From Candidatus Cloacimonadales bacterium (GTDB lineage Bacteria > Cloacimonadota > Cloacimonadia > Cloacimonadales > TCS61), in the NCBI GenBank assembly GCA_030656075.1, contig JAUSOT010000047.1, forward strand, positions 10 to 64,009: a stretch of 64,000 nt of DNA, written 5' to 3'. This document shows, piece after piece, positions 2,570 through 35,378 of this stretch; position 1 is the stretch's first letter, and every line of letters begins with the position of its first letter. Under the pieces are notes generated by a model. The model was not told the DNA's origin. It made no database searches and was given only the letters and a program-made list of their open reading frames with translations. The position numbers and the translations under genes were made by a program.

Positions 2570-3013
2570 CTAAATTTCCAGCGGCGGAATCACCAGTACC
2601 GGTACTTTGGATTGTTTAATCAGGGCATCGTGCGTGCTGCCGACCAGCAGATTGTAAAATTTACCGTGTTTGTGAGAACCGACAATGATCAGATCAGCTT
2701 TAAATTTTTCAGCTTCAGTTATGATGTTGGCAGCCGTGGGACCTTCCAGCAAAACACTCTTCACTTCCAATCCACCCTGTTTTAGATCAGCTTTCAAATC
2801 CTTCAATTTCTGTTTAACTACATTCATCCTGCTTTCCCGCAAATCCAATGTTTGCGGAAATTCATCAAATTCACTTGTGGAAATATAGTAGTCGATAGAT
2901 TCACAATGAACGATGCACAGTTTTGCCTTGAATTCTAAAGTCAATTGTCTGGCATAAGTAATAACCAGATCTGTTTCTTCCGAAAAATCGATCGCAGCTA
3001 AAATTCTTTTCAT
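2570..3013 (-). CDS. universal stress protein (UspA family)
   Basis: 147 aa. Has MKRILAAIDFSE and DLIIVGSHKHGKFYNLLVGSTHDALIKQSKVPVLVI, the typical Usp ATP-binding C-terminus. Confidence 0.8.
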   Translation of the reverse strand: MKRILAAIDFSEETDLVITYARQLTLEFKAKLCIVHCESIDYYISTSEFDEFPQTLDLRESRMNVVKQKLKDLKADLKQGGLEVKSVLLEGPTAANIITEAEKFKADLIIVGSHKHGKFYNLLVGSTHDALIKQSKVPVLVIPPLEI

Positions 3014-3045
3014 TCTTTACCTCCTGAAATTTATATATTTTCTTT

Positions 3046-4158
3046 TTAAAAAGTAAGTCTCTCCAAATAGCCATTTGCTTTGGCACGATAGAATATGCCA
3101 TTTTTCCACAAAAGGCCTTCTCCCTTATCACCGTATTTAATGCCTGTATCAACCGGAATTACTTTATCTTTAAAAAAAGGATTAATAAAATCCTGCGTGG
3201 TATGTCCAACTACAATTTGAGAAGCCTTAAAATGATCGAGAATATCCCAAAGTTCCTGCTGTTTGATTTGTGGTGAAGATTTCGTATCTTCAAAATAGCC
3301 GCGATACCAGAAAGGTCCGTCGTCTTTGAAGAGAAAATTCAGAAAATCGCTGAATTTGATACTGTTTTCCGGTGCATCGATATTCTCCCGCACGGCTTCG
3401 TTAATATCTGCAAATGTGTAATTCCGGGAAATTATTTTAGGATGCAATCCGGCATGAACAAAGAGAATTCCATTAATTTTTATTACAGTATTTTTGGAAC
3501 GAAACCAGCGACCAAATTCAGAATCTTCAGCAAAAAACTTATAATAACTCCTGCCAAGTTTGTCGGCAACTACTTGATATTTCTCGTGCATATAGCGGGT
3601 GTCGCCCCGCAGCAGCATTATCTCATGGTTTCCCAATAGAAAATGAACTTTTCCATTCCAAATCTCAGCCTGTGTTTCCAATTTATGGATCAGCCATAAA
3701 CATTCGGTCACCATCGGACCTCGATCTACTACATCGCCCAAAATAACCAAATGTCCGTCTTCCCAAATCCAGTTATTCTCGGCATCGATCACTTTATTAT
3801 TCTGCAGAATTTGCACGAATCTGTCATATTGTCCGTGAATATCACTGATCACGAAAATTTTATCGACGTTGGTATAGGTGTCGGGGTCAACCAAAGGCTG
3901 GTAGGTGGAAATTTCAAATTCCTGCTCAAAACCTTCCAGATTGAAGGAATATGCACCCGACTCTTTCAAGCGGATTTCCTGGAAAACTTTATGCCCGTTC
4001 ATCACATACTCTACAGTAGCCAAATTGTCTTTCCAAAAAACATAAGGCCCGTCGGTGACTCTGGAATAATCTTCTTCTGTGTTAAATTGGATTTCCTGAG
4101 CGCTGAGATTGGATATCACGAAAATTATCAGAAACACAAATTTCAAGTTTTTCGACAT
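3046..4158 (-). CDS. secreted calcineurin-like metallophosphoesterase
   Basis: Motifs VISDIHG, GDVVDRG and LLGNHE. Signal peptide MSKNLKFVFLIIFVISNLSAQE. I chose the start at the ATG with AAGGA upstream (residue 14 of the track ORF). Confidence 0.75.
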   Translation of the reverse strand: MSKNLKFVFLIIFVISNLSAQEIQFNTEEDYSRVTDGPYVFWKDNLATVEYVMNGHKVFQEIRLKESGAYSFNLEGFEQEFEISTYQPLVDPDTYTNVDKIFVISDIHGQYDRFVQILQNNKVIDAENNWIWEDGHLVILGDVVDRGPMVTECLWLIHKLETQAEIWNGKVHFLLGNHEIMLLRGDTRYMHEKYQVVADKLGRSYYKFFAEDSEFGRWFRSKNTVIKINGILFVHAGLHPKIISRNYTFADINEAVRENIDAPENSIKFSDFLNFLFKDDGPFWYRGYFEDTKSSPQIKQQELWDILDHFKASQIVVGHTTQDFINPFFKDKVIPVDTGIKYGDKGEGLLWKNGIFYRAKANGYLERLTF

Positions 4159-4448
4159 TCCAAATTCCTTTATTATCTTTCCTTCAGAGTTCTGCATAAT
4201 TCTGACTTTGTCTTTGCGAAGAATCTTACAGAGGGATTCTGCTGAAGCAATCTATACTGCTAACAAATTAATTATTAAAGAGATTGCTTCGTCAGCGCAG
4301 CAAGATCCGGCAACTGCCGGACGCAAAGACATATTTTTTTTCACTTTTGCATCAAAACACTCTATTATGCAGAATCCTTATCTTTCCTTAATAAACTTTA
4401 GGTGAATTTCTGAAATTATGAATTACAAGGCAATAATTATTTAAAAAT

Positions 4449-4988
4449 TTATTCGAGAGTTAACTTATTAAATTCGGTTTGATTGAATAACCGGTAATGC
4501 GGCTGATATGTTTTGCGATAAATTTCACTGTGAGAAATAATGAAATCGAGTTTTTCCAGTTTTGAGTTTAGTCTATCGCTGGCTTCCTCAAAATTAAAGA
4601 TTTTGAGAGAAGATTTTTTTAAGATCAATTCTATCTGCTGCCACTGGGTAGCCCATTCCGAATTACTGATTTTTGCTTGAAACTTGCTACTTTTCAAAAA
4701 GCCCTTAAAAAAATCTTCCGGGCTGACGAGTTTCAATTTGATGACCGCTAAATTCACCCGATAAAACGTAGTGCGATAATCTATTTTTTGGAAAAGATGT
4801 GGTTCGAAACTCGTCGCCGAAGCCAGCTCCTGTTGCAGGAAATTTTTCGCTTTTGCTTCATTTTCGATGAAATGCTCGGGACCAAAAGTACCTTGGAAAA
4901 AGAATTTGTAATAATCAATTAAACTGGATTTTGGATGAAGCTGTTCTTCTTGTTTTGCCAGTTCAATGATCTGCGTTTCAGAGAGCAC
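4449..4988 (-). CDS. hypothetical protein
   Basis: 179-aa ORF overlapping the upstream radical SAM gene by 11 nt. No family recognised. Confidence 0.4.
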   Translation of the reverse strand: MLSETQIIELAKQEEQLHPKSSLIDYYKFFFQGTFGPEHFIENEAKAKNFLQQELASATSFEPHLFQKIDYRTTFYRVNLAVIKLKLVSPEDFFKGFLKSSKFQAKISNSEWATQWQQIELILKKSSLKIFNFEEASDRLNSKLEKLDFIISHSEIYRKTYQPHYRLFNQTEFNKLTLE

Positions 4989-5952
4989 GGAAAAAAGTTC
5001 CTCTTTCCTGTACTTCGCTGGTTACCATTTTCAGCAGGATCAATTCCGAAAGATATTTATTGATCTCGTTCAAATGCAAACCCAGCATATCTGCCAGATC
5101 TTGCGTTGTGCAAGGTCGTCGCCGGATCGTTTCCAGAATCCTGCTTTCCACATCATCGCTATAGGAAGCTATGCCACGACGTGACTTGAATTTTGCAATT
5201 ATCTCTACCGGCAGCGGATGCAGTTTTTTGGCAATCCTCTTTAGGTTTTCCCGCGTGGATGGAACCACCCATTCTTTTGTACCGGGTCGATCCAGAGTGT
5301 TCAATTGAATTCGCTCCGGTCGGATTTGTTTCAGAACTTTTTTGAAAAGTTTCAGTTCTTCTTTGGTGTCATTCATTCCGGGAACTATGAAAATTTCCAG
5401 CCAGATTTCACCTTTGAAAATCTTTTTAAATTCGATTAAGCCGTCGATAATATCCTGACTTTTAAGAGATGTCACCGGATTATTGATTTTTCGGAAAACA
5501 TCGTCACTAACTGCATCCAAAGAAGGAAGAAGCAGATCGATATCTTTGATTTCTTCCCGAACTTTTTCATCAGAAAGCAAAGTCGAATTTGTGAGCAAAG
5601 CCAGTTTATATTGCGGATAATTTTCTTTGATATGAGAAATGATCTCCTCGATTCCGATATTCAAAGTCGGCTCACCGGCTCCGGAAAACGTGATGTAATC
5701 CAGTTCGGGATTTCCTGCCAAAAAGTGATCGAGTTCATCCAGAACTTCACTGACTGAAACATATTCTTTCCGTTCCAAGGTGTGAATTGTAGTTTCCCCG
5801 ACTTCACAATAAATGCAGTTTAAACTACAGACTTTATACGGCACCAGATCCACGCCCAGCGACATTCCCAGTCGGCGGGAAGGAACCGGTCCAAAGAGAT
5901 GTTTGTACTTCACTTTTTCACCAAATTTGGATTTCTGTAATTCTGGCTTCAT
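4978..5952 (-). CDS. radical SAM protein with a C-terminal winged-helix-like tail
   Basis: CSLNCIYCEVG (CxxxCxxC), a GAGEPTL glycine-rich SAM motif, and a tail ILETIRRRPCTTQDLADMLGL. Confidence 0.8.
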   Translation of the reverse strand: MKPELQKSKFGEKVKYKHLFGPVPSRRLGMSLGVDLVPYKVCSLNCIYCEVGETTIHTLERKEYVSVSEVLDELDHFLAGNPELDYITFSGAGEPTLNIGIEEIISHIKENYPQYKLALLTNSTLLSDEKVREEIKDIDLLLPSLDAVSDDVFRKINNPVTSLKSQDIIDGLIEFKKIFKGEIWLEIFIVPGMNDTKEELKLFKKVLKQIRPERIQLNTLDRPGTKEWVVPSTRENLKRIAKKLHPLPVEIIAKFKSRRGIASYSDDVESRILETIRRRPCTTQDLADMLGLHLNEINKYLSELILLKMVTSEVQERGTFFRAL

Positions 5953-6466
5953 TGTTGAATTCTTCCAACTTCAGAAATACCTGATCATAACGGTTAATAT
6001 CTGTCTTCCCAATATATGATTCAGAATCGATTATAAACCTGGTGTTGGGAAATTCTTTTGTCTCAAAAACGAATTCAGATAACACATAGGAATACCATAT
6101 TTTATATTCAGGATAAGAATGGCAGAATTCGGTTAATAGACTTCCTATGTGAAGAAGCTTTTCTGTAATATATTTTTCCGAAAACACATTTATTTGTCGA
6201 ATTATTCCAGTGTCGTTTGTTTCCAAAAGCAGAAGAGTTTTCGAATCGTCTGTAATCTGGCACATGCGGTAATCGATCTCTACTCCTTCTTCATCTCGGG
6301 TTTCTGTGAAAATCTCGTATGTCACTCCTTTTATCTTCGTCGGTAATTTGCTGCCAATCAGGAAATTTCCAACTCGATGCTCTCCAATCGTGTATCCTGG
6401 AACTTCCTGGTTTACACAGGAAAGTATCAGTAAAAGAAATGCCGAAAAAATGCAACCAAACTTCAT
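5918..6466 (-). CDS. hypothetical lipoprotein
   Basis: 182 aa. The N-terminus MKFGCIFSAFLLLILSC looks like a lipobox signal peptide. Confidence 0.5.
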   Translation of the reverse strand: MKFGCIFSAFLLLILSCVNQEVPGYTIGEHRVGNFLIGSKLPTKIKGVTYEIFTETRDEEGVEIDYRMCQITDDSKTLLLLETNDTGIIRQINVFSEKYITEKLLHIGSLLTEFCHSYPEYKIWYSYVLSEFVFETKEFPNTRFIIDSESYIGKTDINRYDQVFLKLEEFNNEARITEIQIW

Positions 6467-6900
6467 GATCTGTATTTTTCGACCTGGATGTCGAGCGCCT
6501 TCAAACTGATTGTGATATCAAATAGAAAAAAGATGATTGCGACAATCAAACCACAGATCGCCAGCACAAAAAAAGTGATGAATAGAAAGGAAACATCTAT
6601 TTGAGTGAAATAGCCGAGAAACAACAACAAAATCATCAAACTGGCAAATAAAATCGTCAGCGAAATGGATGTAATCGAAGCACGCAGGATTCTGCTACGT
6701 TTAAACAAAATCCCAATCTGAAGATGTTTATTATCATCTCCTTTTCCTGCTTCAATTTCCTGAACCAGAAATCTTGACCGATCAATTACACGGCCCAGCC
6801 GGTTTGTGAGAGAAAGCAGCAATAATCCAACACCTGAGATGAGAACGATCGGTGATATCGCCGACTGCATCAGTTGGATGAGATTTTGAATGTTTTCCAT
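6463..6900 (-). CDS. DUF2721-like membrane protein
   Basis: 145 aa. Has SPIVLISGVGLLLLSLTNRLGRVIDRSR followed by two C-terminal TM segments. Confidence 0.6.
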   Translation of the reverse strand: MENIQNLIQLMQSAISPIVLISGVGLLLLSLTNRLGRVIDRSRFLVQEIEAGKGDDNKHLQIGILFKRSRILRASITSISLTILFASLMILLLFLGYFTQIDVSFLFITFFVLAICGLIVAIIFFLFDITISLKALDIQVEKYRS

Positions 6901-7144
6901 TTTATTTACCTCTATATTTTATCAGCGAACCTGTCTTCATTGCACTACAACAAGGCAGGTAAGGACGAACAAGTCACCTTGAAAAGGTTTATAAGACTTC
7001 TCTCCCTGCTGAACCTTTTCAACGGTTTGGGCATCATCATCTTCAACCATTGAAAAAGTCGATGAGAAAGAATTCCTCCGGGGGTAACTTTTTCAAGGTT
7101 ATTACTAATTTCGGACTGCGTGAACATGTTGAAATCCATTCTAA

Positions 7145-8245
7145 TCAAAACAACTCCATCTGGCTTTCTACTCTCTCTTTCAGATAAAAATAATTCTGTT
7201 TATTTATCCGCTTCCTCTCGATAAAATCCAATCCTGATAATATTTTAGAAAAATTTTCCGATTCGATTTTTAACTTTAATTTTTCGATGATTTCCTCAAT
7301 CGTAAAAGATTGTGAGGAAAGCATATCTTTTAATCTTGTTTGAAGATAAGATGATTCTTCGATCAAAATATTTCCATCCGAATCGACCGGTTTTGCTCCT
7401 GCCAGGATTAGAAGTTCATTCGCATTTTTTTCATCGGAACCAGGTTTGCGAACATAAATCTCCCGTCCTTTTTTCAAACCATCGAGAACGCCCGACCAGG
7501 TTCCGCCTTTGGAATCGGATTCTGCCGCATAAATAGTTTTAGCCAGTCCGTAAATATAAACATTTCTGCTCATTGCCAAACCTGCCGACCAGGGAACTTT
7601 GGGATGGAAAGTGCTCAAAACCAGGACATCACCCTGCACGATTTGCGAATAATATTTCCTGAAACCGCTGCTGAAAGTCATTATTCCCTGCGGTAGAACG
7701 ATGATGCTGTGACCGACAACTGCGAGAGTTTCATCCAACGCTTTCTTATCTACACCTTTGGCAAATCCGCTGACCACAACTTTATATTCTTTGGCACATT
7801 TTTGAGCGACAGTTTTGGTGAATTGCAGAGAAATATCGGAAGCATTTCTGGAGCCGACTATTGCCACCGTGTCTTCTTGCAACAATTGTTTATTTCCTTT
7901 TATGTATATAACCGGTGGTGAAAATTTCAGTTTGAGATTTGCTTTCAAGGTTGGAGAATAATCTGCGGAATCGATAGGAACGATATTGTAGCCTTGATTG
8001 ATCAAACTTTCTGCCAGAAAGGAGTAGTTCGGCAATTCTTTTTTGGCGGTTTCCAGTTCAGCAATTTCATTGGAATTAAGCTCAAATTCATTTTGCCAAT
8101 TGTTCTTATCTAAGCTGAAGAATTCAGCATAAGTCATCTTCTTTTCCTGCAAAATATCAACTATCAAACGATTTATCCGCTCCGTTCTCCATCTCGGAAG
8201 ATGAGCCAGTGCCATCCAATATGAAGAATTTTCCAAATTTTCCAT
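7145..8245 (-). CDS. dprA: DNA-processing protein DprA/Smf
   Basis: 366 aa. Rossmann core VAIVGSRNASDISLQFTKTV...VVVSGFAKGVDKKALDETL...IIVLPQGI and a C-terminal wHTH-like tail. Its start codon abuts the stop of the upstream helicase gene. Confidence 0.8.
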   Translation of the reverse strand: MENLENSSYWMALAHLPRWRTERINRLIVDILQEKKMTYAEFFSLDKNNWQNEFELNSNEIAELETAKKELPNYSFLAESLINQGYNIVPIDSADYSPTLKANLKLKFSPPVIYIKGNKQLLQEDTVAIVGSRNASDISLQFTKTVAQKCAKEYKVVVSGFAKGVDKKALDETLAVVGHSIIVLPQGIMTFSSGFRKYYSQIVQGDVLVLSTFHPKVPWSAGLAMSRNVYIYGLAKTIYAAESDSKGGTWSGVLDGLKKGREIYVRKPGSDEKNANELLILAGAKPVDSDGNILIEESSYLQTRLKDMLSSQSFTIEEIIEKLKLKIESENFSKILSGLDFIERKRINKQNYFYLKERVESQMELF

Positions 8246-10257
8246 TATAAATCTCCACCTATGGTTTTTGCGATTACTAACGGAGCAATTATTTCCGCTC
8301 CAATTTTTGTAAACATTTTTGCTATTTCTTTTATTGTTGCTCCGCTGTCAAAGATGTCGTCGATCAATAAAATCTTCTTCCCAAAAATTTCCGCTTCATT
8401 TTCATAAGAAAAAACATCTTTCACATTATCCCGCTTCAAAACATAATTCTGAAAGATTTTCTGGGGTTTTGTATGATGCACTTTCTTTAATTTATCTGAA
8501 AACGGAAACCTCAAAGTGCGAGCAATTTTATAAGCAAAATTTTTCACGAGATCACCGGATTCCGTGGGCGGAACATACACGATTAGATCGAATTTTTCAT
8601 CTTCGAATTTATGTCTGAAAGCTCGCAAAGTCAGAATTAACAGATGATTGGGGAAATCTCCACCCTTCTCATATTTACAGCGATGAATGATCGCTCCCAC
8701 ATTGGAAAATCCATAATACGAAGCTGCGATTCCATTCACAATATTGGAACTTCCCGTTTCGACTTCCAGTTCGGGATAAAAATCTTGCTGGAATTTCCGT
8801 ATTCTTGCTTTCCAATAATTATCAGGAAAATACTGTGGATTTCGTTGCAGACAATTGTTACAATTATCACATTTCTTTACCGAATCATCTCCGAGATAAC
8901 TACAGAGAAAATCCATTCGGCACTCTGTAGATTCGCAATAATTTACCATTTGATCAAGTTCGTTCATCTTAAAATCGCGAAGTTTTTCAAAAGACTCGAT
9001 ATCCAGTTGGGAAGCACCAAATTGATACTCGTATTTTTTATCGCGGCCATACATCACTTCCCTGATAATGCCCTGATCGATCAAATCCGCTCTGATCACA
9101 CGAACTTGCGTCTGCGTCAGATTGGTTTTCCTCATCAAATTCCATTCACCGAGCGGTTCTTTCTTCAAGGCTTCGATAACTTTTTCATATTTTTTCAGCG
9201 AAGGACGGCTGTTCTTAATGAAATGCTCCGGCAATTCTTTATCTTCAGGATTATACAGCAGAATGATATTTGTAGGAAGTCCGTCGCGTCCGGCTCGTCC
9301 GATTTCCTGGTAATAATGGATGGGAGATTGCGGCATTTGCGTGTGAATGATGAAACGAACATCCGGCTTGTCGATGCCCATTCCGAGAGCATTTGTAGAA
9401 ACGATACATTTCCAGCGATTTTCCTGCAAACCATTCTCGATATCTTTGCGCGAATCGGAATCTAAACCTGCATTATAATTGGCAGCGCTGATATTTTCCG
9501 ATTGCAGCCAGGCAGCATACAAATCGGTATTCACTCTCGTTCCCGTGTAGATGAGACCGTTTCCTGCCTGTTTTTGCAGGAATTGTGCAATCCAGGCCAT
9601 TTTGGAAATTTCATCATCCACTTTCACGACGCTCAAATAAAAATTCTTGCGCAGTAAATTTCCCCTGATCAGAGAAACATTTCTACCTATTTGTTGAATA
9701 ATATCATCGGCAACTTTCTGTGTCGCAGTTGCTGTAGTTGCCAGCACCGGAAAGTTTTCGGGAAGCAGCCGAACCAAGCTGATTATACGCATGAAAGCGG
9801 GTCGGAAATCGTGTCCCCAAACCGAGATACAATGCGCTTCATCGACCACGACCATGGAAAGATTCATCATCCGTACCGCTTCCGTCCACTGCTGATTTTC
9901 CTGTCTTTCCGGTGCGATGTAGAGGATCTTTATTTTTCCATTTACAGCATTTTCCAGTATTTCTGTGTTTTCTTCCGCTTCCTGTCCGCTGTTTATACAT
10001 TCGCAGTTGATTCCAATGGATTTCAGATATTTCACCTGATCTCGCATTAAAGCGATCAAAGGTGAGAAGATGATCGTCATTCCTTCAAATTGGGTTGCCG
10101 GAAATTGATAGCATAACGATTTCCCGAAACCTGTTTTCTCGATTAAGAGTATTCTCTCACCATTCAGGATTCGTTCTATCGTTTTCCATTGATCGTCGTA
10201 GAAATGATCGAGGTTGAAGCTTTGTTTTAGTTTTTGTTCTGCTTCGGGTCTGGTCAT
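8245..10257 (-). CDS. RecQ-family DNA helicase fused to a C-terminal ComF-type phosphoribosyltransferase domain
   Basis: N-terminal motifs are TGFGKSLCYQ (motif I), VVDEAHCISVWGHDFRP (DEAH), TATAT and QEIGRAGRDG, plus a Zn-binding CxxxC..CDNCNNC. The C-terminal ~190 aa have IVYVPPTESGD and the PRTase loop KKILLIDDIFDSGATIKE. Confidence 0.8.
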   Translation of the reverse strand: MTRPEAEQKLKQSFNLDHFYDDQWKTIERILNGERILLIEKTGFGKSLCYQFPATQFEGMTIIFSPLIALMRDQVKYLKSIGINCECINSGQEAEENTEILENAVNGKIKILYIAPERQENQQWTEAVRMMNLSMVVVDEAHCISVWGHDFRPAFMRIISLVRLLPENFPVLATTATATQKVADDIIQQIGRNVSLIRGNLLRKNFYLSVVKVDDEISKMAWIAQFLQKQAGNGLIYTGTRVNTDLYAAWLQSENISAANYNAGLDSDSRKDIENGLQENRWKCIVSTNALGMGIDKPDVRFIIHTQMPQSPIHYYQEIGRAGRDGLPTNIILLYNPEDKELPEHFIKNSRPSLKKYEKVIEALKKEPLGEWNLMRKTNLTQTQVRVIRADLIDQGIIREVMYGRDKKYEYQFGASQLDIESFEKLRDFKMNELDQMVNYCESTECRMDFLCSYLGDDSVKKCDNCNNCLQRNPQYFPDNYWKARIRKFQQDFYPELEVETGSSNIVNGIAASYYGFSNVGAIIHRCKYEKGGDFPNHLLILTLRAFRHKFEDEKFDLIVYVPPTESGDLVKNFAYKIARTLRFPFSDKLKKVHHTKPQKIFQNYVLKRDNVKDVFSYENEAEIFGKKILLIDDIFDSGATIKEIAKMFTKIGAEIIAPLVIAKTIGGDL

Positions 10258-10551
10258 AGAATTATTTTTTTACAACGAACAATGACGAACTGTTTTAAGT
10301 CTTTGTTCATCTTATTCCCAAATTGCATTTGGGAATATAATTGAATTAGAATTTTCATTTCGGTTTTTTTTCAAAGATTATTTATATCTTTCACGCTAAT
10401 TCTATCAACATTTAATCCATATCCCAGTATAACTTTTCCCCAAAATTGCATTCCCACTCGTCCCGAAGGCTTTCGGGAGGAATGAGGAGAAATACTTATT
10501 TCTTGATAAGAATCCATTTTGCCACTCTCTATCAATATTATCCAAAAAAGA

Positions 10552-10956
10552 TTAGACTTTTTCCAGCCAACAATCTTTTTCATCTTTTATTAATTCTTTC
10601 ATCTCCGCCAAATCTATATCAGATAATTTCCCAATTTCATTCAGGAAAGTATAGAAATTAATAAAGCCGGCAATAAATTCTCGAATCGTAGATTTAGTAA
10701 CTAAACTTGCTTTTCTGATGAAGAAATCTCCCAAAAAATAGCCGATATGTTTGGCTCCGTTTTGAGCAGGAATTATTTCATTGCGGAGAAGAAAAGTGTT
10801 TATATATAACTCGATATTAGCCCGGTGATTTTTTATTATCTTTGATTTCAGTTTTTGGCTTTTTAACCTTTGTCCAAATTCCAGCAGCAAATCATGGTTG
10901 ATTTTCTTCTCAACTTCTACTTGATTTTCCCATTCGATATATTCTTTGTTTTCCAT
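10552..10956 (-). CDS. hypothetical protein (faint resemblance to integrase SAM-like N-terminal domain)
   Basis: 134-aa ORF starting immediately after the MNT stop codon with no gap. No catalytic motif recognised. Confidence 0.4.
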   Translation of the reverse strand: MENKEYIEWENQVEVEKKINHDLLLEFGQRLKSQKLKSKIIKNHRANIELYINTFLLRNEIIPAQNGAKHIGYFLGDFFIRKASLVTKSTIREFIAGFINFYTFLNEIGKLSDIDLAEMKELIKDEKDCWLEKV

Positions 10957-11277
10957 TTATTTTCCTTTCTTATTCATCACGAAAAAAATCTTTCCTTCTT
11001 CTTCGATGTGCTCGATCAAGTCACTATTTGAGATAGAGTTGAAATCCACAACATCAAAGAAATATGGCAGAGGAAGTTCTTCATTTAAAAGATCGGAAAA
11101 ACGTTTTATCGTTACATCAGTAACATCATTTCCAAAAACTGCTAAATCGACATCAGATCCATTTTTGAAATTTCCCATAGCTCTGGAACCAAAAATTACG
11201 ATTTTTTCTATTTCAGGAAATTCCCGAATTGCTTTGATAATATTATCAATATCCCTGATCTTTAATCCAAATTTCAT
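10957..11277 (-). CDS. minimal nucleotidyltransferase (MNT/MntA-type antitoxin)
   Basis: 106 aa with the motif IFGSRAMGNFKNGSDVDLAV (GSx10DxD). Confidence 0.8.
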   Translation of the reverse strand: MKFGLKIRDIDNIIKAIREFPEIEKIVIFGSRAMGNFKNGSDVDLAVFGNDVTDVTIKRFSDLLNEELPLPYFFDVVDFNSISNSDLIEHIEEEGKIFFVMNKKGK

Positions 11278-11672
11278 TTCTGAGATTCCATAAAATCGAA
11301 AAATTTCCTCATTTCAGGATAATATTTGGTTTTAATTATGTTCGTAATTTTTAGAGCCGTTTCTTCATCATAAGTGTGAGCTGTGAGGTTCCTGTCGTTC
11401 AAAGCATCGATCCAAATATGACCGTCTTGAATCAAATTAGATTGCATAGCTTGTTTTATTGAATCACGAGGACTTTGCAAAATGAATCCCTTAGCCTCTA
11501 GATAATCCTTCATCAGTTTCCAGGAAAGTTCAAACGCCATTTCAAAAAACTGAATTACTCCTGCCCGTTCAAGTTCGTTAGGTTCAGTAATATCGACGTA
11601 TTTTTCCAGTAGTGAAAAAGCTTTTTCGAAATTCTGAAATCTCTGTTTCCAGCGAATTTCTTTTCCGTTCAT
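11274..11672 (-). CDS. HEPN-domain protein, HI0074-type nucleotidyltransferase substrate-binding family (HepT-like toxin)
   Basis: 132 aa. Family-typical W.QRF.NF.KA..L and the R(x4-6)H-like motif RNLTAHTY. Overlaps the MNT gene by 4 nt. Confidence 0.8.
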   Translation of the reverse strand: MNGKEIRWKQRFQNFEKAFSLLEKYVDITEPNELERAGVIQFFEMAFELSWKLMKDYLEAKGFILQSPRDSIKQAMQSNLIQDGHIWIDALNDRNLTAHTYDEETALKITNIIKTKYYPEMRKFFDFMESQK

Positions 11673-11686
11673 GTAAACTCCTTATC

Positions 11687-13354
11687 TTACACTTTCCCTT
11701 GAACTTCCTTTTCCACCAGCAAAGCAATATTATTCACTTTTTCAAGGAGTGTGTCGGCTTTGGTCAGAATGTCAAACTTGAACCTTTCATCTTCGATGCT
11801 GCCCATATTTATCTTCACATTCAGGTAAGCTGACTTTGCCGCCGCATTAGCTGTGATCGCTGCTACTCCTGCATCGGAAAGCGCATTGGCATTGCCTATT
11901 TTAGCAACTTTAGCTGCAAGTTCAACCGCTTCCATTGCAATTCTCAGGGTTTCCAAAGGAACCAGGATGGCATTCTTGGTAGTTTCCTGAATTACTTTAT
12001 CGCGGATTTTCTTTTCTTCTTCGGTTGTTTTGGGAAGGCGCATTGCATCCATCATAGCATAAAATGCCTGTGTGTCGGTATCGATTGCCATCATAGATCG
12101 CTCTTTTATATTCTGCCCGATTTCTGCCAGTTCTCTGGCTTCATCCCAGACTTTTTCATAGCCTTTTTTACCGAAAGTTAGATTGGAAACCATGGCAGAA
12201 AGCGCTCCCGACATCGAAGAACAAAGAGCTGCCACACTTCCGCCGCCCGGAGCAGGTGAATCTGAGGAAAGTTCATCAGCGAATTCCGTCAAAGTCATAT
12301 TCACCAAATTATCTTTTTTGGCGATGGCGTATTCGATCACTTTTTCGTTTATGTCAAAATCGGATAGATCATCCAAGCCCATGGATTGAACAGCAGTTTC
12401 GATGATCATTTTCTCAGGAATGCCGGCACTCTCGCCCAGGCGGTTCAGGTAATATTTTCCGGCCATCAGGATCGCTTCTTTGGGAATGAGACCAACCAGT
12501 TCACTGCCGGTGATTTGAATGCCTTTTTCCTTGGCTAGTTCACGAACTTTTTCCAGTACCAGATGCGGAGGAGTAACTTTGTAATTGGTTAAATTGATGC
12601 TGATCTGAGCCCTGTTATATTCAGCGATATACCAGCCGACGGCTTTACAGTTTTTGAATAAACCCGGTTCCATCAATTTATTGCCGTCTTTATCCCTCAT
12701 GATCTTGTTATTTGCATCTCGTTTGACTTGCCCTTTTTCACGAATGGAAAGCGCCAGATCATGCGCTTTCTTCTGATCGCGGGAATTCAGATTGATGTTG
12801 TAAGCGATCAGGAATTCACGTGCGGAAACGGCAGTAGCTCCGGCTTTGGGATTAAATTTGTGCGGACCGTAATCCGGTTTCCATTCCGGTTTTCCTTCCC
12901 GGTCTTTCAAGCCTTCATACTCGCCTTTGCGCACTTCCGCCAGGTTTTTCCAAAGCGGTTTGGTGGCAGCATATTCATACATGTAAACCGGAATCCCCAG
13001 TTCTTCTCCCACTCGCTTTCCAACTTTGTGGGCAAATTCCACGCAGTCATCCATGGTTACGCCGCTCACAGGAACGAAAGGACAGACATCCGTTGCACCC
13101 ATGCGGGGATGAGCGCCGCTGTGTTTGGTCATGTCGATCAGTTCGGATGCTTTTTTGATAGCTTGAAAAGCCGCTTCCATCACCGGTTCCGGCTCGCCAA
13201 CTATAGTCACAACGGTTCTGTTTGTATCGGCACCCGGATCGACATCCAGCAGCGTTACGCCATCCACCGCTTTGATAGTTTCCGAAATGGCATCCAATAT
13301 TTTATGATCGCGTCCTTCACTGAAATTCGGTACGCATTCTACGATTCGCATCAC
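11687..13354 (-). CDS. ftcD: glutamate formiminotransferase-cyclodeaminase (bifunctional)
   Basis: 555 aa. N-terminus IVECVPNFSEGRD, with a C-terminal cyclodeaminase domain (SDSPAPGGGSVAAL). Confidence 0.85.
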   Translation of the reverse strand: MMRIVECVPNFSEGRDHKILDAISETIKAVDGVTLLDVDPGADTNRTVVTIVGEPEPVMEAAFQAIKKASELIDMTKHSGAHPRMGATDVCPFVPVSGVTMDDCVEFAHKVGKRVGEELGIPVYMYEYAATKPLWKNLAEVRKGEYEGLKDREGKPEWKPDYGPHKFNPKAGATAVSAREFLIAYNINLNSRDQKKAHDLALSIREKGQVKRDANNKIMRDKDGNKLMEPGLFKNCKAVGWYIAEYNRAQISINLTNYKVTPPHLVLEKVRELAKEKGIQITGSELVGLIPKEAILMAGKYYLNRLGESAGIPEKMIIETAVQSMGLDDLSDFDINEKVIEYAIAKKDNLVNMTLTEFADELSSDSPAPGGGSVAALCSSMSGALSAMVSNLTFGKKGYEKVWDEARELAEIGQNIKERSMMAIDTDTQAFYAMMDAMRLPKTTEEEKKIRDKVIQETTKNAILVPLETLRIAMEAVELAAKVAKIGNANALSDAGVAAITANAAAKSAYLNVKINMGSIEDERFKFDILTKADTLLEKVNNIALLVEKEVQGKV

Positions 13355-13390
13355 TTTCCTCCGAATATATTTTTTTTATTAATTCTTCTT

Positions 13391-13592
13391 ACCTTCCGAA
13401 CGGCTGAAACAAAGTTGAGAACCTTCGGAACGGTGAAAAGATCATCATCACCAACCGTTGCCAAGGTTCTCGTGAACTCGACCGTTTGCAAGGTTTTAAT
13501 TCACCTTCCGAACGGCTGGAAGACCTTCGGAACGGTGAAGCAAAAATCATCTCCAACCGTTCGCAAGGTTCTGCGATCGTTGCGAAGGTTTC
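13391..13592. repeat. two tandem ~100-nt REP-like composite units (hairpin CACCTTCCGAACGG..CCTTCGGAACGGTG plus two AACCGTTGCCAAGGTT-type boxes)
   Basis: Unit 1 is 13391-13495 and unit 2 is 13502-13592. Both are highly similar to 14165-14261. Unit 2 overlaps the RAYT stop codon. Confidence 0.8.
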
Positions 13593-14154
13593 ACATATCA
13601 TTATCAATTAAATAATCCTCAATTCCTTTTGCACTAAATTCATATTCTTTCATTAACTTTTCATATTCCTCAAAACTATCATAATTTTCATCAAAATAAT
13701 TCCAACTAAACAATTCAGATTTTCTTTTTCCAATGAATTCCAAATAATTTGAATAAGGCCAAGCTTCAAGTTTTTTTACTAAATTTGCTTTAACTGGATT
13801 GTAATGAATGTAATTAACAATTCTACTGAGATATGATTGATTATCAATAATTCTTGTTTTCGCTTTTCCCTCAAAAAGTGTACCATTTCTATTTTCTCTA
13901 TGATTGATAATTTGCACGTAAGGATTGAAAATGTATTTTATCCAGTTGGATGCCGGCTTATCTGTTAACTGCTTAACCAGCAGATGATAATGATTTGGCA
14001 TTAAACAAAATGCGATAATATCAATACCGCTTTTTTCTTTTGAATCTATCATTCTACTGATTAAAAGATTGTAGTCTTCTTCGTAAAAGAAAATTGGTTC
14101 TTTATTGCATCCTCTGTTATAAATATGGTAAAATCCAAATTGCTCAAAAATCAT
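13591..14154 (-). CDS. REP-associated tyrosine transposase (RAYT; IS200/IS605 Y1 HUH family)
   Basis: 187 aa. HUH motif in MPNHYHLLV and catalytic-Tyr region VNYIHYNPVKANLV. The coding sequence is more AT-rich than the flanks. Confidence 0.8.
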   Translation of the reverse strand: MIFEQFGFYHIYNRGCNKEPIFFYEEDYNLLISRMIDSKEKSGIDIIAFCLMPNHYHLLVKQLTDKPASNWIKYIFNPYVQIINHRENRNGTLFEGKAKTRIIDNQSYLSRIVNYIHYNPVKANLVKKLEAWPYSNYLEFIGKRKSELFSWNYFDENYDSFEEYEKLMKEYEFSAKGIEDYLIDNDM

Positions 14155-14164
14155 ATTGTATCCT

Positions 14165-14261
14165 CACCTTCCGAACGGCTGGAAGACCTTCGGAACGGTG
14201 AAAAGATCATCATCACCAACCGTTGCCAAGGTTCTCGTAAACTCGACCGTTTGCAAGGTTT
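14165..14261. repeat. REP-like composite unit upstream of the RAYT gene, in the same orientation as the downstream units
   Basis: CACCTTCCGAACGGCTGGAAGACCTTCGGAACGGTGAAAAGATCATCATCACCAACCGTTGCCAAGGTTCTCGTAAACTCGACCGTTTGCAAGGTTT. It is near-identical to parts of 13391-13592. Confidence 0.8.
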
Positions 14262-14289
14262 CAAGATATTTAATAAGTCTATCCATTCT

Positions 14290-16639: not shown

Positions 16640-16942
16640 TAATCTTCTCATTCCACAGCTTCTGCTTGGGAACGCAATATCATCTTGGGTTATCGTTACT
16701 GGTTCTTTGCAACTCGAAGCTTATTTTATCACCTTCCGAACGGTCTGAACATCTTGAAGAACCTTCCTCTTCTCATTCCTATGCTTCTACTTTGGAATGC
16801 TATAATCAATGATGAAGCTTCGGCTTCATTATCTAAGTAGCTGAAACTGTTCATGTTAGTGCATTACGAATTAGAAAATTCGTAATGAGAAAATTGCTTT
16901 CCAACCGTTGCCAAGGTTCAATGACCGTTGCGAAGGTTTCAT
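16640..16942. repeat. array of short hairpin 'words' downstream of the 978-aa gene
   Basis: Includes CATTACGAAT-TAGAAA-ATTCGTAATG (16862-16887), ATGAAGC-TTCG-GCTTCAT, a CACCTTCCGAACGG-type box (about 16727) and AACCGTTGCCAAGGTT / GACCGTTGCGAAGGTTT (16901-16940). Confidence 0.7.
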
Positions 16943-16943
16943 A

Positions 16944-20002: not shown

Positions 20003-20258
20003 ACTCATTCCAAAGCTTCCGCTTGGGAATGCGATAATATGAGAAGTTTCAACTTCATTTTTTCTGCCGCATAAGCTGCCAATGTTACTACATTACGAAC
20101 TGGAAAGTTCGTAATGAGAAATTGATTTTGCTTAACAACTGTTACGAAGGTTTTCCCAACTTCCGAATGTGCAAAGCTCTTTGGAATGTTGGTTTTTAAG
20201 TTTGATTATGTCTGTAAACATTCTGATGATCCCGAAAGTTTTCGGGAACAATCAGAAG
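20003..20258. repeat. array of short hairpin 'words' upstream of the 978-aa gene
   Basis: CATTCCAAAGC-TTCC-GCTTGGGAATG, CATTACGAAC-TGGAAA-GTTCGTAATG (20091-20116), AACTGTTACGAAGGTT (20135-20151) and TCCCGAAA-GT-TTTCGGGA. The order parallels 16640-16942. Confidence 0.7.
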
Positions 20259-33225: not shown

Positions 33226-34284
33226 ATGATGAAGCAATTTTTTATTATTTTGTTTTTAATTAGCTGTGTTTCAATTTTTGCCAATCCGATCGCACCACAT
33301 ATAAACATTACTGAATTCATTTTTACCGAGACCGGCTGGCAAATGGAATTGTACAGTGATTATCTGGAAACGAATTGTTTGGATAGTTGCCAGGTAGTGT
33401 GTTCCGAGGGAAGTTCCTATTTTCAACCGGGGATTGAATATTATGAAGGAACATTATTGGTTGTAACGGAAGAAGACTTAGTGACGCCATTATTTATAAA
33501 CGAACAAACGGATAGCGTCAGCATTTTATATTCTCTGGGAGATGGTTCTTCTTTCAACTTTGGAACTTTGAACAGCATGGTCTTGGCTCCTTCAGCAGGA
33601 CAATCTCTTCGAGCAGTTGGTTTATCTTTAAATGCTGCTGATACCTATTACGTGTTTGCCAAAGACAACACACCCTCGATGGGAACATGGGATGATGGAA
33701 TTGGTTTTAGGGGAATTTTTTGCGGTTATGTGTTTGATTCACTCATGAATCCTGTCGAAAATGTGGAAATCGAACATACACCGGATTGTATCAGTATTCC
33801 TGACATCAATACTGACGAAAATGGGTATTTCGAAGTAGAACTTTATGCCTTTAATTACAATTGTGATATTCATCTTGGAGCGCTTGCTTCAATGGATTCG
33901 ATAATATCTATTGAACCGGATGCACAAAATTATTATGAATTTGTTTTCGAAAATTATGTTCATTCCGATGATTATGAAATTGAGCTACCATCTTCGTTCT
34001 ATAAGCTTTTCAACTTTCCGAATCCATTCAATCCCAACACAGAGATTAGTTTTCAGATTTCAGACTTCAGTGATCAGAATTTAGAAATTCAGATATTTAA
34101 TTCCAAAGGACAGAAGATAAACGTGATTGATACGTTCCCAAACGGGAGTTTAGGAACGAGAGTAGTTGTTGAATGGGATGGAACAAATTCTTCTGGCAAA
34201 ACCTGTCCCTCCGGCGTTTATCTCTACAAACTTGTTTCAGGAGATAAAGAACTTGCAGCGAACAAAATGCTGCTTTTAAAATAA
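33226..34284 (+). CDS. secreted protein with a T9SS-type C-terminal sorting domain (paralogue 1 of 3)
   Basis: Signal peptide MMKQFFIILFLISCVSIFA. C-terminus FPNPFNPNTEISFQISDFS...IQIFNSKGQK...WDGTNSSGKTCPSGVYLYKLVSGDKELAANKMLLLK. The track start is a TTG; the ATG at 33226/33229 follows AGGAGG. Confidence 0.65.
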   Translation: MMKQFFIILFLISCVSIFANPIAPHINITEFIFTETGWQMELYSDYLETNCLDSCQVVCSEGSSYFQPGIEYYEGTLLVVTEEDLVTPLFINEQTDSVSILYSLGDGSSFNFGTLNSMVLAPSAGQSLRAVGLSLNAADTYYVFAKDNTPSMGTWDDGIGFRGIFCGYVFDSLMNPVENVEIEHTPDCISIPDINTDENGYFEVELYAFNYNCDIHLGALASMDSIISIEPDAQNYYEFVFENYVHSDDYEIELPSSFYKLFNFPNPFNPNTEISFQISDFSDQNLEIQIFNSKGQKINVIDTFPNGSLGTRVVVEWDGTNSSGKTCPSGVYLYKLVSGDKELAANKMLLLK

Positions 34285-34328
34285 GGTTACGAAGATAGAC
34301 TTCTCAACCAGATTTCATGGAGGTAAAG

Positions 34329-35378
34329 ATGCGAACGATTTTTTTAATTATTGTTTTTCTTTTGATCTGTTTTGCAGGTCTTTCTGCTAATCCGATTTCA
34401 CCCTTATTTTTAAGCGAATTCCAATTTAATAATTACTGGTGGTTTTTGGAAATATCTGACTTTTACGAATTTGGATTAGAAAATCTGGATGGTTGCAGTT
34501 TAGCGTCCAACAATTGTACCTCATATTTTGAAAATGGAATAACATGTAATGAAAATGGTGTATTCTTAGTTTATCATACTGATGTTCAACCACCTTTTGC
34601 ATTTAATCATTTAGGTGACACAATTACTTTTGAGAGCCCAATGGGCATGGACGAAATCTCATTTGGTATAGATGTAAATCCACCATATGGAGATCAAACA
34701 TTGGCAAGATTTACATATTGGTATGGTATACCGCCGGATGAAGATTTGGGCAGTGGCTTAGCGAAAAATAGTTACTCTACAATGGGTTCTTATCCATTTT
34801 GTGTAAATTCGAGTGGTGTAATAAATGGCTTCGTTTATGATTCCATGATGAATCCGGTTCCAAGTGTTCATTTGGAGTATAATTATTATACAAGCGAAGA
34901 GGATGAGATTTATACAGACGGTACAGGATATTTTTCGGCTTATTTGCTTGGTAGAAATTACAATTTAAATATTCATCTTGATGAATTAGCTTCGCTAAAT
35001 ACTACTATTACTGTTGAACCCGACAGTATATATTTTTTTGAATTCATCTTCGAAAATTATGTCCATTCCGATGATTATGAAATCTCTCTTCCAGCATTCT
35101 ATTACAAACTTTCCAACCACCCCAATCCTTTCAATCCCAGTACAGAAATTAGTTTTGAAACCACTAATTTGCACGAAGATGCACGAATTGAAATCTATAA
35201 TTCCAAAGGACAGAAAGTTACAAATCTCCCAATCACTCAATCACCAAATCACCAAATTTCTGTAGAATGGGACGGCACCAACTCAATCGGCAAATCCTGT
35301 CCATCGGGAGTTTATTTGTATAAACTTGTTTCGGGAGAAAAAGAACTGGCAGCGAATAAAATGCTGCTGCTTAAATGA
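34329..35378 (+). CDS. secreted protein with a T9SS-type C-terminal sorting domain (paralogue 2 of 3)
   Basis: MRTIFLIIVFLLICFAGLSA signal peptide after GGAGGT. It shares the N-terminal ANPI(A/S)P..EF module, a central GFVYDSMMNPV module and the C-terminal sorting domain with paralogue 1. Confidence 0.65.
   Translation: MRTIFLIIVFLLICFAGLSANPISPLFLSEFQFNNYWWFLEISDFYEFGLENLDGCSLASNNCTSYFENGITCNENGVFLVYHTDVQPPFAFNHLGDTITFESPMGMDEISFGIDVNPPYGDQTLARFTYWYGIPPDEDLGSGLAKNSYSTMGSYPFCVNSSGVINGFVYDSMMNPVPSVHLEYNYYTSEEDEIYTDGTGYFSAYLLGRNYNLNIHLDELASLNTTITVEPDSIYFFEFIFENYVHSDDYEISLPAFYYKLSNHPNPFNPSTEISFETTNLHEDARIEIYNSKGQKVTNLPITQSPNHQISVEWDGTNSIGKSCPSGVYLYKLVSGEKELAANKMLLLK

What the first reader, a model, noticed from the sequence alone, without database searches (positions are those of the whole stretch)
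7145..10257. dprA coupled to a RecQ helicase::ComF-type phosphoribosyltransferase fusion
The 670-aa protein has a complete RecQ core (motif I TGFGKS, DEAH, QEIGRAGRDG, Zn-binding Cys cluster). Where HRDC would be expected, it has about 190 aa with the hallmarks of ComFC-type PRTases (IVYVPPTESGD, KKILLIDDIFDSGATIKE). Its stop codon abuts the start of a canonical dprA at 8245. In Bacillus-type competence systems, ComFA (a helicase), ComFC (a PRTase-like ssDNA binder) and DprA act successively on incoming ssDNA. Here a RecQ-family motor appears to replace ComFA and is covalently fused to the ComFC module. An alternative reading is a nucleotide-centred conflict system, since a DprA/SLOG-type Rossmann domain, a helicase and a PRTase are all parts used in defence systems. 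An HEPN/MNT module lies 300 nt away.
Basis: partly seen in the sequence, partly recalled or inferred. Interest (0 to 1): 0.65.

Follow-up and report, generated by a model that had tools for sequence, protein, structure and literature searches.

The report
Known PsyrTA (RqlHI) toxin–antitoxin defence pair
The RecQ-helicase/phosphoribosyltransferase fusion and the DprA-like gene that follows it are a typical copy of the already described PsyrTA (RqlHI) toxin–antitoxin/anti-phage system, inserted in a variable spot of a Cloacimonadales chromosome, and not a new DNA-uptake machine.

Summary
A 670-aa RecQ-core + C-terminal PRTase protein (8245..10257, minus strand) overlaps by one base (TAATG) a 366-aa DprA-fold protein (7145..8245). 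All quoted motifs are present.

The pair is not new. The helicase fusion matches the PADLOC PsyrT profile end to end (933 bits, E 2e-281), and the partner matches PsyrA (264 bits). The pair aligns with an E. coli homologue with the same architecture, and the residues mutated in published RqlH work are conserved (K46, D139, DIFD 634-637).

PsyrTA/RqlHI was described as a toxin–antitoxin pair by Sberro 2013 and by Russell & Mulvey 2015. It was validated as phage defence by Millman 2022.

In 80 reference-genome loci, 77 have the fusion. About half have a DprA-like gene directly downstream, including every close relative whose contig extends far enough downstream to show it.

The pair is accessory. 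One relative has it at the same site without the HEPN/MNT genes, and a closer relative has an empty site.

The DprA-like protein and the PRTase domain both score far below the curated dprA and ComF cut-offs. The competence reading is therefore not supported, and Russell & Mulvey had already floated it. Interest is low.

The parts
8245..10257 (-). psyrT (rqlH-like) toxin gene, 670 aa: RecQ-family helicase fused to a C-terminal phosphoribosyltransferase domain
   Evidence: ORF. PADLOC PsyrT 933 bits, E 2e-281, profile positions 5-688 of 689. Pfam DEAD, Helicase_C, RecQ_Zn_bind and Pribosyltran. 31% identity over the full length to an E. coli PsyrT-like protein, E 4e-108.
9250..10257 (-). PsyrT aa 1-336: two RecA-like helicase lobes (motif I K46, DEAH 139-142, QEIGRAGRDG 317-326)
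   Evidence: Pfam. TIGR00614 recQ_fam 351 bits, above its 220 cut-off. E. coli RecQ 1oyw 281 bits over aa 6-340. Foldseek match to RecQ catalytic cores, E 3e-29.
8761..9249 (-). PsyrT aa 337-499: winged-helix-like module (aa 354-411), RecQ Zn-binding Cys cluster (aa 441-469) and linker; no HRDC
   Evidence: Pfam RecQ_Zn_bind at aa 424-470. AF2 secondary structure. Cys positions.
8248..8760 (-). PsyrT aa 500-670: PRTase domain with PRPP-loop LLIDDIFDSGAT; D634-I-F-D637 aligns with the E. coli DIVD motif
   Evidence: Pfam Pribosyltran 31.7 bits. Alignment with the E. coli homologue. D633 and D634 invariant, D637/S638/G639 at least 90% conserved in 49 homologues. The toxicity role of this motif is from PMC4670107.
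8243..8247 (-). TAATG junction: psyrT stop codon overlaps the psyrA start codon by one base, which suggests translational coupling and one operon
   Evidence: Sequence. The same T-then-A order, overlapping or adjacent, occurs in 35 related loci and is reported in PMC4670107.
7145..8245 (-). psyrA (rqlI-like) antitoxin gene, 366 aa: DprA fold with an N-terminal helical domain (aa 1-83), Rossmann domain (aa 87-287) and C-terminal winged helix (aa 300-355)
   Evidence: PADLOC PsyrA 264 bits, E 4e-79. Pfam DNA_processg_A 130 bits. AF2 pLDDT 91. Foldseek best matches: DprA 3maj, ShosA 8zva, DprA 3uqz.
10258..10551 (-). Upstream intergenic region, presumably holding the promoter. It contains two palindromes (10315-10335 and 10461-10478). 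No strong sigma-70-type promoter was called.
   Evidence: The function of this region is inferred only.

Best explanation
This is a two-gene PsyrTA (RqlHI) toxin–antitoxin / anti-phage defence operon.

PsyrT is a RecQ-like helicase whose C-terminal PRTase domain is the toxic effector. In E. coli, unrestrained RqlH causes SOS induction, filamentation and growth arrest, and this requires the PRPP-binding aspartates. PsyrA is a DprA-fold protein translated from the overlapping downstream gene. It binds and restrains PsyrT.

By analogy with the sister system ShosTA, phage infection is expected to lift that restraint, so that the PRTase poisons nucleotide or DNA metabolism and aborts the infection. 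The trigger could be phage ssDNA or replication intermediates, or loss of the antitoxin.

Shown here: family membership, intact catalytic motifs, operon structure, conserved neighbourhood, and accessory status at this site. Inferred from homologues: toxicity, neutralisation, phage defence and the trigger. The PRTase substrate is unknown for the whole family.
For: - Profile matches: PsyrT 933 bits over the full length and PsyrA 264 bits. E. coli and Providencia homologues used as controls score 1019-1026 bits.
- Full-length alignment to an E. coli PsyrT-like protein in which K46, D139 and D634-I-F-D637 line up with K49, D148 and the DIVD motif. These are the residues studied in PMC4670107.
- The motifs are conserved in 49 homologues.
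- Gene order is T then A, with a 1-nt overlap, as reported for rqlHI.
- 77 of 80 reference-genome loci carry the fused PRTase. 35 of the 72 loci with enough downstream sequence have a DprA-like gene immediately downstream, including all six relatives with at least 56% identity whose loci extend past the helicase gene. Loci without one are mostly Actinomycetota, matching PMC4670107.
- Accessory status: the site is empty in L088, holds the pair alone in L082, and holds the pair plus HEPN/MNT in the window. In E. coli ST131 the pair sits inside a type I R-M operon.
- The PsyrA model is closest to DprA and to the ShosA antitoxin.
- Literature: PsyrTA/RqlHI is a TA pair and was reported as involved in phage resistance, and a ΔpsyrA mutant could not be obtained.
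Against: - There are no experimental data for this locus or this phylum.
- The window's PsyrT is only 31% identical to the E. coli homologue retrieved here.
- The window's PsyrA matches only positions 9-297 of the 398-position PsyrA profile, so its C-terminal winged helix differs from that of E. coli RqlI.
- Many Gram-positive bacteria carry RqlH without any RqlI, so the helicase-PRTase is not always toxic.
- A native-host study of an E. coli PsyrTA found no protection against the phages it tested.
- The biochemical activity of the PRTase domain and the role of the helicase are unknown.
Confidence: 0.88

Rival explanations
1. Competence machinery. A RecQ-type motor replaces ComFA, is fused to a ComFC-type ssDNA-binding PRTase module, and passes incoming ssDNA to a canonical DprA for RecA loading.
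For: ComF (TIGR00201) and GntX are the best-matching named PRTase families: for the window protein and for 13 and 10 of 19 diverse family members. PsyrA has the complete three-domain DprA fold. The analogy was also noted in PMC4670107.
Against: - ComF and GntX scores are about 41 bits against cut-offs of 233 and 304, and the first 46 positions of the ComF profile are not matched.
- dprA TIGR00732 scores 109 bits, below its 191 cut-off, while PsyrA scores 264 bits.
- The pair is absent from the same site in a close relative and is present in only some E. coli genomes. That pattern is atypical of core competence genes.
- No other com genes were found among the window genes examined.
- Homologues behave as toxin and antitoxin, and no transformation was detected in strains that carry them.
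Confidence: 0.04
2. A dedicated DNA-repair or genome-maintenance module. The RecQ-like helicase and a DprA-like recombination mediator cooperate in a beneficial DNA transaction, and toxicity is only a by-product of imbalance. This is the model favoured in the 2015 paper.
For: According to PMC4670107, M. smegmatis RqlH is an active helicase of the RecQ family. RqlH occurs alone in many Actinomycetota. The helicase motifs are intact and conserved. ShosA works through RecA and ssDNA.
Against: - The pair shows a presence/absence polymorphism at one chromosomal site among close relatives.
- It sits next to other conflict modules: HEPN/MNT here and a type I R-M system in E. coli.
- It is included in defence-system catalogues after experimental phage assays.
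- It scores below the housekeeping recQ equivalog cut-off (402 < 640) and lacks HRDC.
Confidence: 0.06
3. A DpdF-type helicase from a Dpd (7-deazaguanine DNA modification) defence island.
For: Several PADLOC DpdF profiles match the helicase half, up to 391 bits. NCBIfam DpdF scores 173 bits. A radical-SAM gene lies 2 kb away.
Against: - The DpdF matches cover only the helicase half and are far weaker than the PsyrT match (933 bits, full length).
- NCBIfam DpdF scores 173 bits, below its 550 cut-off.
- No other dpd genes were seen among the neighbouring genes scanned.
- The radical-SAM gene is part of the conserved backbone and is also present at the empty site in L088.
Confidence: 0.01

Closest known systems
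PsyrTA / RqlHI (P. syringae psyrTA, Sberro et al. 2013; E. coli F11 RqlH-RqlI, Russell & Mulvey 2015, PMC4670107; phage defence, Millman et al. 2022, bioRxiv 10.1101/2022.05.11.491447)
   Same: Same two-gene architecture, order and overlap. Full-length match to the PsyrT profile. DprA-like partner. Conserved Walker A lysine, DEAH and PRPP-loop aspartates. Accessory, island-like location.
   Different: Only about 31-33% identical to the E. coli proteins. PsyrA is shorter (366 aa against 400-462 aa) and has a different C-terminal winged helix. The host is an anaerobic Cloacimonadales MAG. Nothing has been tested experimentally.
ShosTA (PMC11961720; PMC12961424)
   Same: DprA-like antitoxin combined with a PRTase-domain toxin. 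The PsyrA model matches the ShosA structure 8zva at E 4e-15, and the PADLOC ShosA profile scores 105 bits.
   Different: ShosT has a pyrophosphatase-like N-terminal domain and no RecQ helicase. ShosA does not bind ShosT and acts through RecA and ssDNA, whereas RqlI binds RqlH directly. The ShosT profile scores only 24 bits here.
Mycobacterium smegmatis RqlH (stand-alone RecQ-like helicase with a PRTase domain; cited in PMC4670107)
   Same: Same fused helicase-PRTase architecture. According to PMC4670107, the helicase and ATPase activities do not depend on the PRTase domain.
   Different: Actinobacterial RqlH genes have no DprA-like partner. The window gene does.
ComFA / ComFC / DprA competence proteins
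   Same: The same three kinds of parts: an SF2 helicase, a ComF-like PRTase fold and a DprA fold. ComF is the nearest named PRTase family.
   Different: The helicase belongs to the RecQ family, not ComFA. The PRTase and DprA-like proteins fall far below the family cut-offs. The pair is an accessory toxin–antitoxin module, not part of a com regulon.
Housekeeping RecQ
   Same: The catalytic core (helicase lobes and Zn-binding motif) superposes on E. coli and C. sakazakii RecQ.
   Different: No HRDC. A PRTase domain takes its place. The protein scores below the recQ equivalog cut-off (402 < 640).

Membership tests
PsyrTA / RqlHI | Toxin with an N-terminal RecQ-family helicase core including the Zn-binding motif | tested here: met
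   Pfam DEAD, Helicase_C and RecQ_Zn_bind. recQ_fam TIGR00614 351 bits, above its 220 cut-off. Foldseek match to RecQ cores, E 3e-29.
PsyrTA / RqlHI | PRTase domain fused at the C-terminus with an intact acidic PRPP-binding loop | tested here: met
   Pfam Pribosyltran 31.7 bits, above its 26.3 cut-off. LLIDDIFDSGAT aligns with E. coli LLVDDIVDSGWT. The aspartates are conserved in 49 homologues.
PsyrTA / RqlHI | Full-length match to the PsyrT family profile | tested here: met
   PADLOC PDLC03928: 933 bits, E 2e-281, profile positions 5-688 of 689. The E. coli control scores 1019 bits.
PsyrTA / RqlHI | DprA-like partner matching the PsyrA profile | tested here: met
   PADLOC PDLC03927: 264 bits, E 4e-79, but only profile positions 9-297 of 398. 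The region equivalent to RqlI 1-320, which is sufficient in E. coli, is largely covered. The C-terminal domain differs.
PsyrTA / RqlHI | Helicase gene upstream of the DprA-like gene, same strand, adjacent or overlapping | tested here: met
   1-nt TAATG overlap. The same arrangement occurs in 35 related loci and is reported in PMC4670107.
PsyrTA / RqlHI | Toxin is growth-inhibitory alone, and the partner neutralises it by direct binding | not testable with these tools
   Known for E. coli RqlH/RqlI. Here it is only inferred.
PsyrTA / RqlHI | Protects against phage infection | not testable with these tools
   Reported for a homologue. No protection was detected in one native-host study.
Canonical DprA (TIGR00732 / PRK10736 equivalogs) | Score at or above the curated equivalog cut-off | tested here: not met
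   TIGR00732 109 bits, below 191.15. NF008007 81 bits, below 495.
Canonical DprA (TIGR00732 / PRK10736 equivalogs) | Three-domain DprA fold (helical N-terminal domain, Rossmann domain, C-terminal winged helix) | tested here: met
   AF2 model with pLDDT 91. Best Foldseek hit is 3maj DprA, E 4e-16 over 374 columns. The ShosA antitoxin shares this fold, so it does not discriminate.
ComF / ComFC (TIGR00201; GntX PRK11595) | Score at or above the curated cut-off, with coverage of the whole profile including its N-terminal part | tested here: not met
   comF 41.6 bits, below 233.55, with only profile positions 47-189 matched. GntX 40.7 bits, below 304. ComF is nevertheless the most frequent best hit in the family, 13 of 19 members. 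No ComFC entry appeared among the PDB sequence matches.
Housekeeping RecQ (TIGR01389 / PRK11057) | Equivalog cut-off reached, and RQC plus HRDC domains present | tested here: not met
   402 bits, below 640. 328 bits, below 1015. No PF09382 or PF00570 hit.
Dpd system (DpdF) | DpdF equivalog score and neighbouring dpd genes | tested here: not met
   NF041063 173 bits, below 550. No Dpd-type domain was found in the neighbouring genes scanned.
ShosTA | ShosT-type toxin (pyrophosphatase-like N-terminal domain plus PRTase, no helicase) with a ShosA antitoxin | tested here: not met
   ShosT profile 24 bits, on the PRTase part only. ShosA 105 bits, below PsyrA's 264 bits. This is a sister system, not the same family.

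The most novel reading that the evidence does not exclude
The resemblance to ComFA/ComFC/DprA may be more than shared folds. PsyrTA could be an exapted ssDNA-handling triad that inspects invading or replicating single-stranded DNA. In this reading the RecQ-like motor and the DprA-like subunit engage ssDNA, and perhaps RecA, as ShosA does. That engagement would release a ComF-like PRTase, which then modifies DNA or nucleotides. The FCB-group clade found here, with a short PsyrA carrying a distinct C-terminal winged helix, might use a different trigger or regulation from E. coli RqlHI.
Probability: 0.15. Interest if true: 0.5.

Novelty: already known. Interest (0 to 1): 0.12.

Why it matters
It matters little as a discovery. 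The architecture, its linkage to a DprA-like gene, its toxin–antitoxin behaviour and its defence role are all published, and standard defence finders (PADLOC, DefenseFinder) would label this locus automatically.

It has three modest uses:
- It shows that general annotation ('RecQ family helicase' plus 'DNA-processing protein DprA', as PGAP names both this MAG's protein and the E. coli copies) invites a wrong competence or repair reading.
- It documents a PsyrTA copy in Cloacimonadota, with a clean set of empty, single-cargo and double-cargo states at one hotspot.
- It is a reminder that the biochemical target of the PsyrT PRTase domain is still unknown.

Tried and rejected
- Competence reading: rejected on the family cut-offs, the accessory distribution and the literature.
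- DpdF/Dpd system: rejected, because the matches are partial and weaker and no dpd neighbours were found.
- HEPN/MNT as part of the system: rejected, because L082 has psyrTA without it.
- Second recQ, dprA or comF gene in the window: none found with phmmer against all six-frame ORFs. The rest of the genome could not be examined.
- Ranking the PRTase fold against ComFC, ShosT and PurF by structure: this failed. The full-length model's Foldseek list was filled by RecQ-family helicases, and models cannot be cropped. The sequence-profile search of the PDB gave PRPP synthetase and PurF as best hits and no ComFC.
- Target-site duplications or att-like repeats flanking psyrTA: none convincing.
- Promoter and terminator scan: nothing above the shuffled background.
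- Sberro 2013 full text: not held in the library, so it is cited only through other papers.
- Pfam on the PsyrA termini, the PsyrT linker and the 134-aa ORF: no significant new hits.
Full report
**Observation**

Every quoted motif is present:
- TGFGKS at aa 42-47
- DEAH at aa 139-142
- QEIGRAGRDG at aa 317-326
- six cysteines between aa 441 and 469
- IVYVPPTESGD at aa 559-569
- KKILLIDDIFDSGATIKE at aa 627-644

Pfam reports DEAD, Helicase_C, RecQ_Zn_bind and a C-terminal Pribosyltran domain (31.7 bits, above its gathering score). It reports no HRDC or RQC. The second protein is DNA_processg_A at 130 bits. The genes overlap by one base, TAATG.

Three details need correcting:
- The DprA-like protein does not reach the curated dprA cut-offs: TIGR00732 gives 109 bits against 191, and PRK10736 gives 81 against 495.
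- The HEPN/MNT pair starts 699 nt upstream, with a 134-aa ORF in between.
- 'ComF-type' is only a nearest-family resemblance (see below).

**What it is**

Against PADLOC-DB the 670-aa protein matches the PsyrT profile from end to end: 933 bits, E 2e-281, profile positions 5-688 of 689. The 366-aa protein matches PsyrA at 264 bits, E 4e-79. As controls, homologues from E. coli ST131 and Providencia score 1019-1026 bits on PsyrT, and the E. coli partner scores 577 bits on PsyrA.

The window protein aligns over its full length with the E. coli protein (31% identity, E 4e-108). K46, D139 and D634-I-F-D637 align with K49, D148 and the DIVD motif. These are the helicase and PRPP-loop residues that Russell & Mulvey mutated. 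They are invariant or nearly invariant in 49 homologues.

The literature on PsyrTA (also called RqlHI):
- It was described as a toxin–antitoxin pair by Sberro 2013 and characterised in ExPEC by Russell & Mulvey 2015 (PMC4670107).
- RqlH alone triggers SOS, filamentation and growth arrest through its PRTase domain. RqlI binds RqlH and counters this. rqlH always lies upstream of rqlI, and the genes often overlap.
- Millman et al. 2022 list it among systems involved in phage resistance. They note the DprA-like antitoxin and the PRTase toxin, and they could not obtain a ΔpsyrA mutant.

**Structure**

The AF2 model of PsyrT has pLDDT 81 and pTM 0.76. About 500 residues superpose on RecQ catalytic cores (4tmu and 1oyw, E 3e-29). 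A confidently modelled α/β domain follows, covering roughly aa 505-665.

The PsyrA model (pLDDT 91) has three parts: an N-terminal helical domain, a Rossmann domain and a C-terminal winged helix. Its best structural matches are R. palustris DprA 3maj, the ShosA antitoxin 8zva and S. pneumoniae DprA 3uqz, all at about 1e-15. Molybdenum-cofactor carrier and LOG/SLOG proteins follow. The PDB holds no PsyrT or RqlH structure.

**Is the PRTase 'ComF-type'?**

Among NCBIfam models, ComF (TIGR00201, 41.6 bits) and GntX (40.7 bits) are the best matches for the C-terminal 198 aa. Both lie far below their cut-offs of 233 and 304. The first 46 positions of the ComF profile are not matched.

The same two families are the commonest matches across 19 diverse family members, 13 and 10 of 19 respectively. 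A profile of the domain finds PRPP synthetase and PurF as the best PDB sequences, and no ComFC.

So the domain resembles ComF-clade PRTases but is not a ComF family member.

**Conservation of the pair**

More than 8000 database proteins match the fusion at E ≤ 1e-20, and the best 120 almost all share its Pfam architecture. A scan of species-representative genomes returned 80 loci from many phyla.

In these loci:
- 77 of 80 have the PRTase fused to the helicase.
- 72 fused loci have at least 900 nt of downstream sequence. Of these, 31 have a DprA-like ORF within −250 to +400 nt of the helicase ORF's end. Four more (L017, L025, L027, L075) overlap further only because ORFs were taken stop-to-stop. 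The total is 35.
- One locus has the DprA-like gene upstream, and one has it 2.2 kb downstream.
- All six relatives with at least 56% identity whose loci extend past the helicase gene have the partner.
- Loci without a partner are mostly Actinomycetota. This reproduces the published Gram-negative versus Gram-positive split.

DNA matching the Providencia pair is found in 1678 of 5426 complete E. coli genomes. PGAP annotates it 'RecQ family ATP-dependent DNA helicase' and 'DNA-processing protein DprA'. In one ST131 chromosome the pair sits between hsdS and hsdR of a type I R-M system. Full-length homologues occur on 7 plasmids, including haloarchaeal, cyanobacterial and E. coli plasmids, and on no phage record.

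**Genomic context**

The window comes from a Candidatus Cloacimonadales MAG. NrdD and PsyrA are 100% identical to NCBI proteins from a 64,911-bp contig. The surrounding genes are ordinary chromosomal genes.

The ftcD–DUF2721 interval exists in three states:
- L088 (ftcD 87% identical at the protein level) is empty. ftcD is followed after about 55 nt by the DUF2721 gene.
- L082 (ftcD 81%, PsyrT 91%, PsyrA 87%) has psyrTA alone, 93 nt after ftcD.
- The window has HEPN, MNT, a 134-aa ORF and a 48-aa ORF, and then psyrTA.

The pair is therefore accessory cargo in a variable hotspot, and the HEPN/MNT cassette is an independent insertion. No other RecQ or DprA gene is present in the window.

**Mechanism**

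Shown here: family membership, intact helicase and PRPP-loop motifs, a translationally coupled operon, a conserved neighbourhood, and accessory status.

Inferred from E. coli RqlHI: PsyrT is toxic through its PRTase domain, and PsyrA binds and restrains it.

Inferred from the sister system ShosTA: PRPP binding is essential for ShosT toxicity. ShosA binds ssDNA and RecA and responds to phage ssDNA. Infection would thus release the toxin and abort phage replication.

The substrate of the PRTase and the role of the helicase are unknown for the whole family.

**Rivals**

- The competence reading fails on the family cut-offs, the accessory distribution and the behaviour of homologues. It was already raised, and not supported, in 2015.
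- A genome-maintenance role cannot be fully excluded, because RqlH occurs alone in Actinomycetota, but it fits the hotspot polymorphism poorly.
- DpdF is excluded by its scores and by the neighbouring genes.

**Verdict**

This is an ordinary, uncharacterised member of the known PsyrTA/RqlHI system. Interest is low.

Noticed in passing
window 10552-11672 (-): HEPN (NTase_sub_bind, 11274-11672), MNT (Polbeta, 10957-11277) and an unannotated 134-aa ORF (10552-10956) form a tightly packed three-gene cassette. The whole cassette is missing from L082, which has psyrTA directly after ftcD. The 134-aa ORF has no significant family hit (a weak Phage_int_SAM_4 hint, E 0.04) and may be a third component.
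   Followed up: partly
window 7140-10244 vs L082 8014-11118; window 11684-13346 vs L082 6249-7911: psyrTA DNA is 87.0% identical between the window and L082. The adjacent housekeeping gene ftcD is only 75.1% identical, and other flanks are 64-70%. L088, whose ftcD is closer to the window's (87% aa), lacks psyrTA altogether. This suggests recent exchange or loss of the pair at this site.
   Followed up: partly
window 13386-14264, 16726-16959, 7011-7029: An IS200-like Y1 transposase ORF (13591-14154, Pfam Y1_Tnp 33 bits) is flanked by 79-nt direct repeats that are 97% identical (13421-13499 and 14186-14264). The core motif CCAACCGTTGCCAAGGTTC recurs at 13451, 13553, 14216 and 16901, and a degenerate copy lies at 7011-7029 just downstream of psyrA. 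This looks like a RAYT with REP-like elements.
   Followed up: partly
window 51251-53146 (-): A group II intron. Rfam matches Intron_gpII (51251-51332) and group-II-D1D4-4 (53030-53146). They flank an ORF with reverse transcriptase and maturase domains (51364-52725; RVT_1 and GIIM).
   Followed up: partly
window 10315-10335, 10461-10478, 20230-20247; L082 11130-11225: Perfect or near-perfect palindromes lie upstream of psyrT: TTCCCAAATTGCATTTGGGAA and TCCCGAAAGCCTTCGGGA. A 68-nt stretch (10389-10456) is 78% identical to sequence downstream of psyrA in L082, and a similar palindrome occurs at 20230-20247. These may be dispersed intergenic elements at cargo junctions.
   Followed up: partly
L123 (E. 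coli ST131 NZ_CP051609.1) 2664-12743: In E. coli ST131 the PsyrT-like and PsyrA-like genes lie inside a type I restriction-modification operon, between hsdM/hsdS and hsdR. An IS3 element and an integrase gene lie downstream.
   Followed up: no
proteins P0027, P0050, P0064, P0080, P0087, P0098 etc.: Some close relatives of PsyrT (64-73% identity) are 840-950 aa long. They carry RQC and/or HRDC Pfam domains in addition to the PRTase domain, so some family members retain the classical RecQ accessory domains.
   Followed up: no
window 8995-9198 (PsyrT aa 354-411): In the AF2 model a winged-helix-like module (three helices and a β-hairpin) lies before the Zn-binding Cys cluster (aa 441-469). In Pfam, only the later part of the RecQ_Zn_bind profile (positions 18-66) matches, at aa 424-470. 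The domain order therefore appears to differ from classical RecQ, where Zn-binding precedes the winged helix.
   Followed up: no
window 5918-6466 (-); L088 10145-10174: The 182-aa ORF between the DUF2721 and radical-SAM genes has no family hit. It is absent from L088, where those two genes are 29 nt apart. This is a second small indel in the same neighbourhood.
   Followed up: no
L014 5025-5993 and L046 10315-11640: Two atypical arrangements. In a Chloroflexota MAG (L014) the DprA-like ORF lies upstream of the helicase-PRTase gene. In Pseudoclavibacter (L046) a weaker DprA-like ORF lies 2.2 kb downstream.
   Followed up: no
window 33853-36709 and 48352-48614: There are large imperfect direct repeats, 119-201 nt at 72-88% identity, among 33853-34121, 34956-35376 and 36436-36709. 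They probably reflect paralogous adjacent genes. A 128-nt tandem pair lies at 48352-48614.
   Followed up: no
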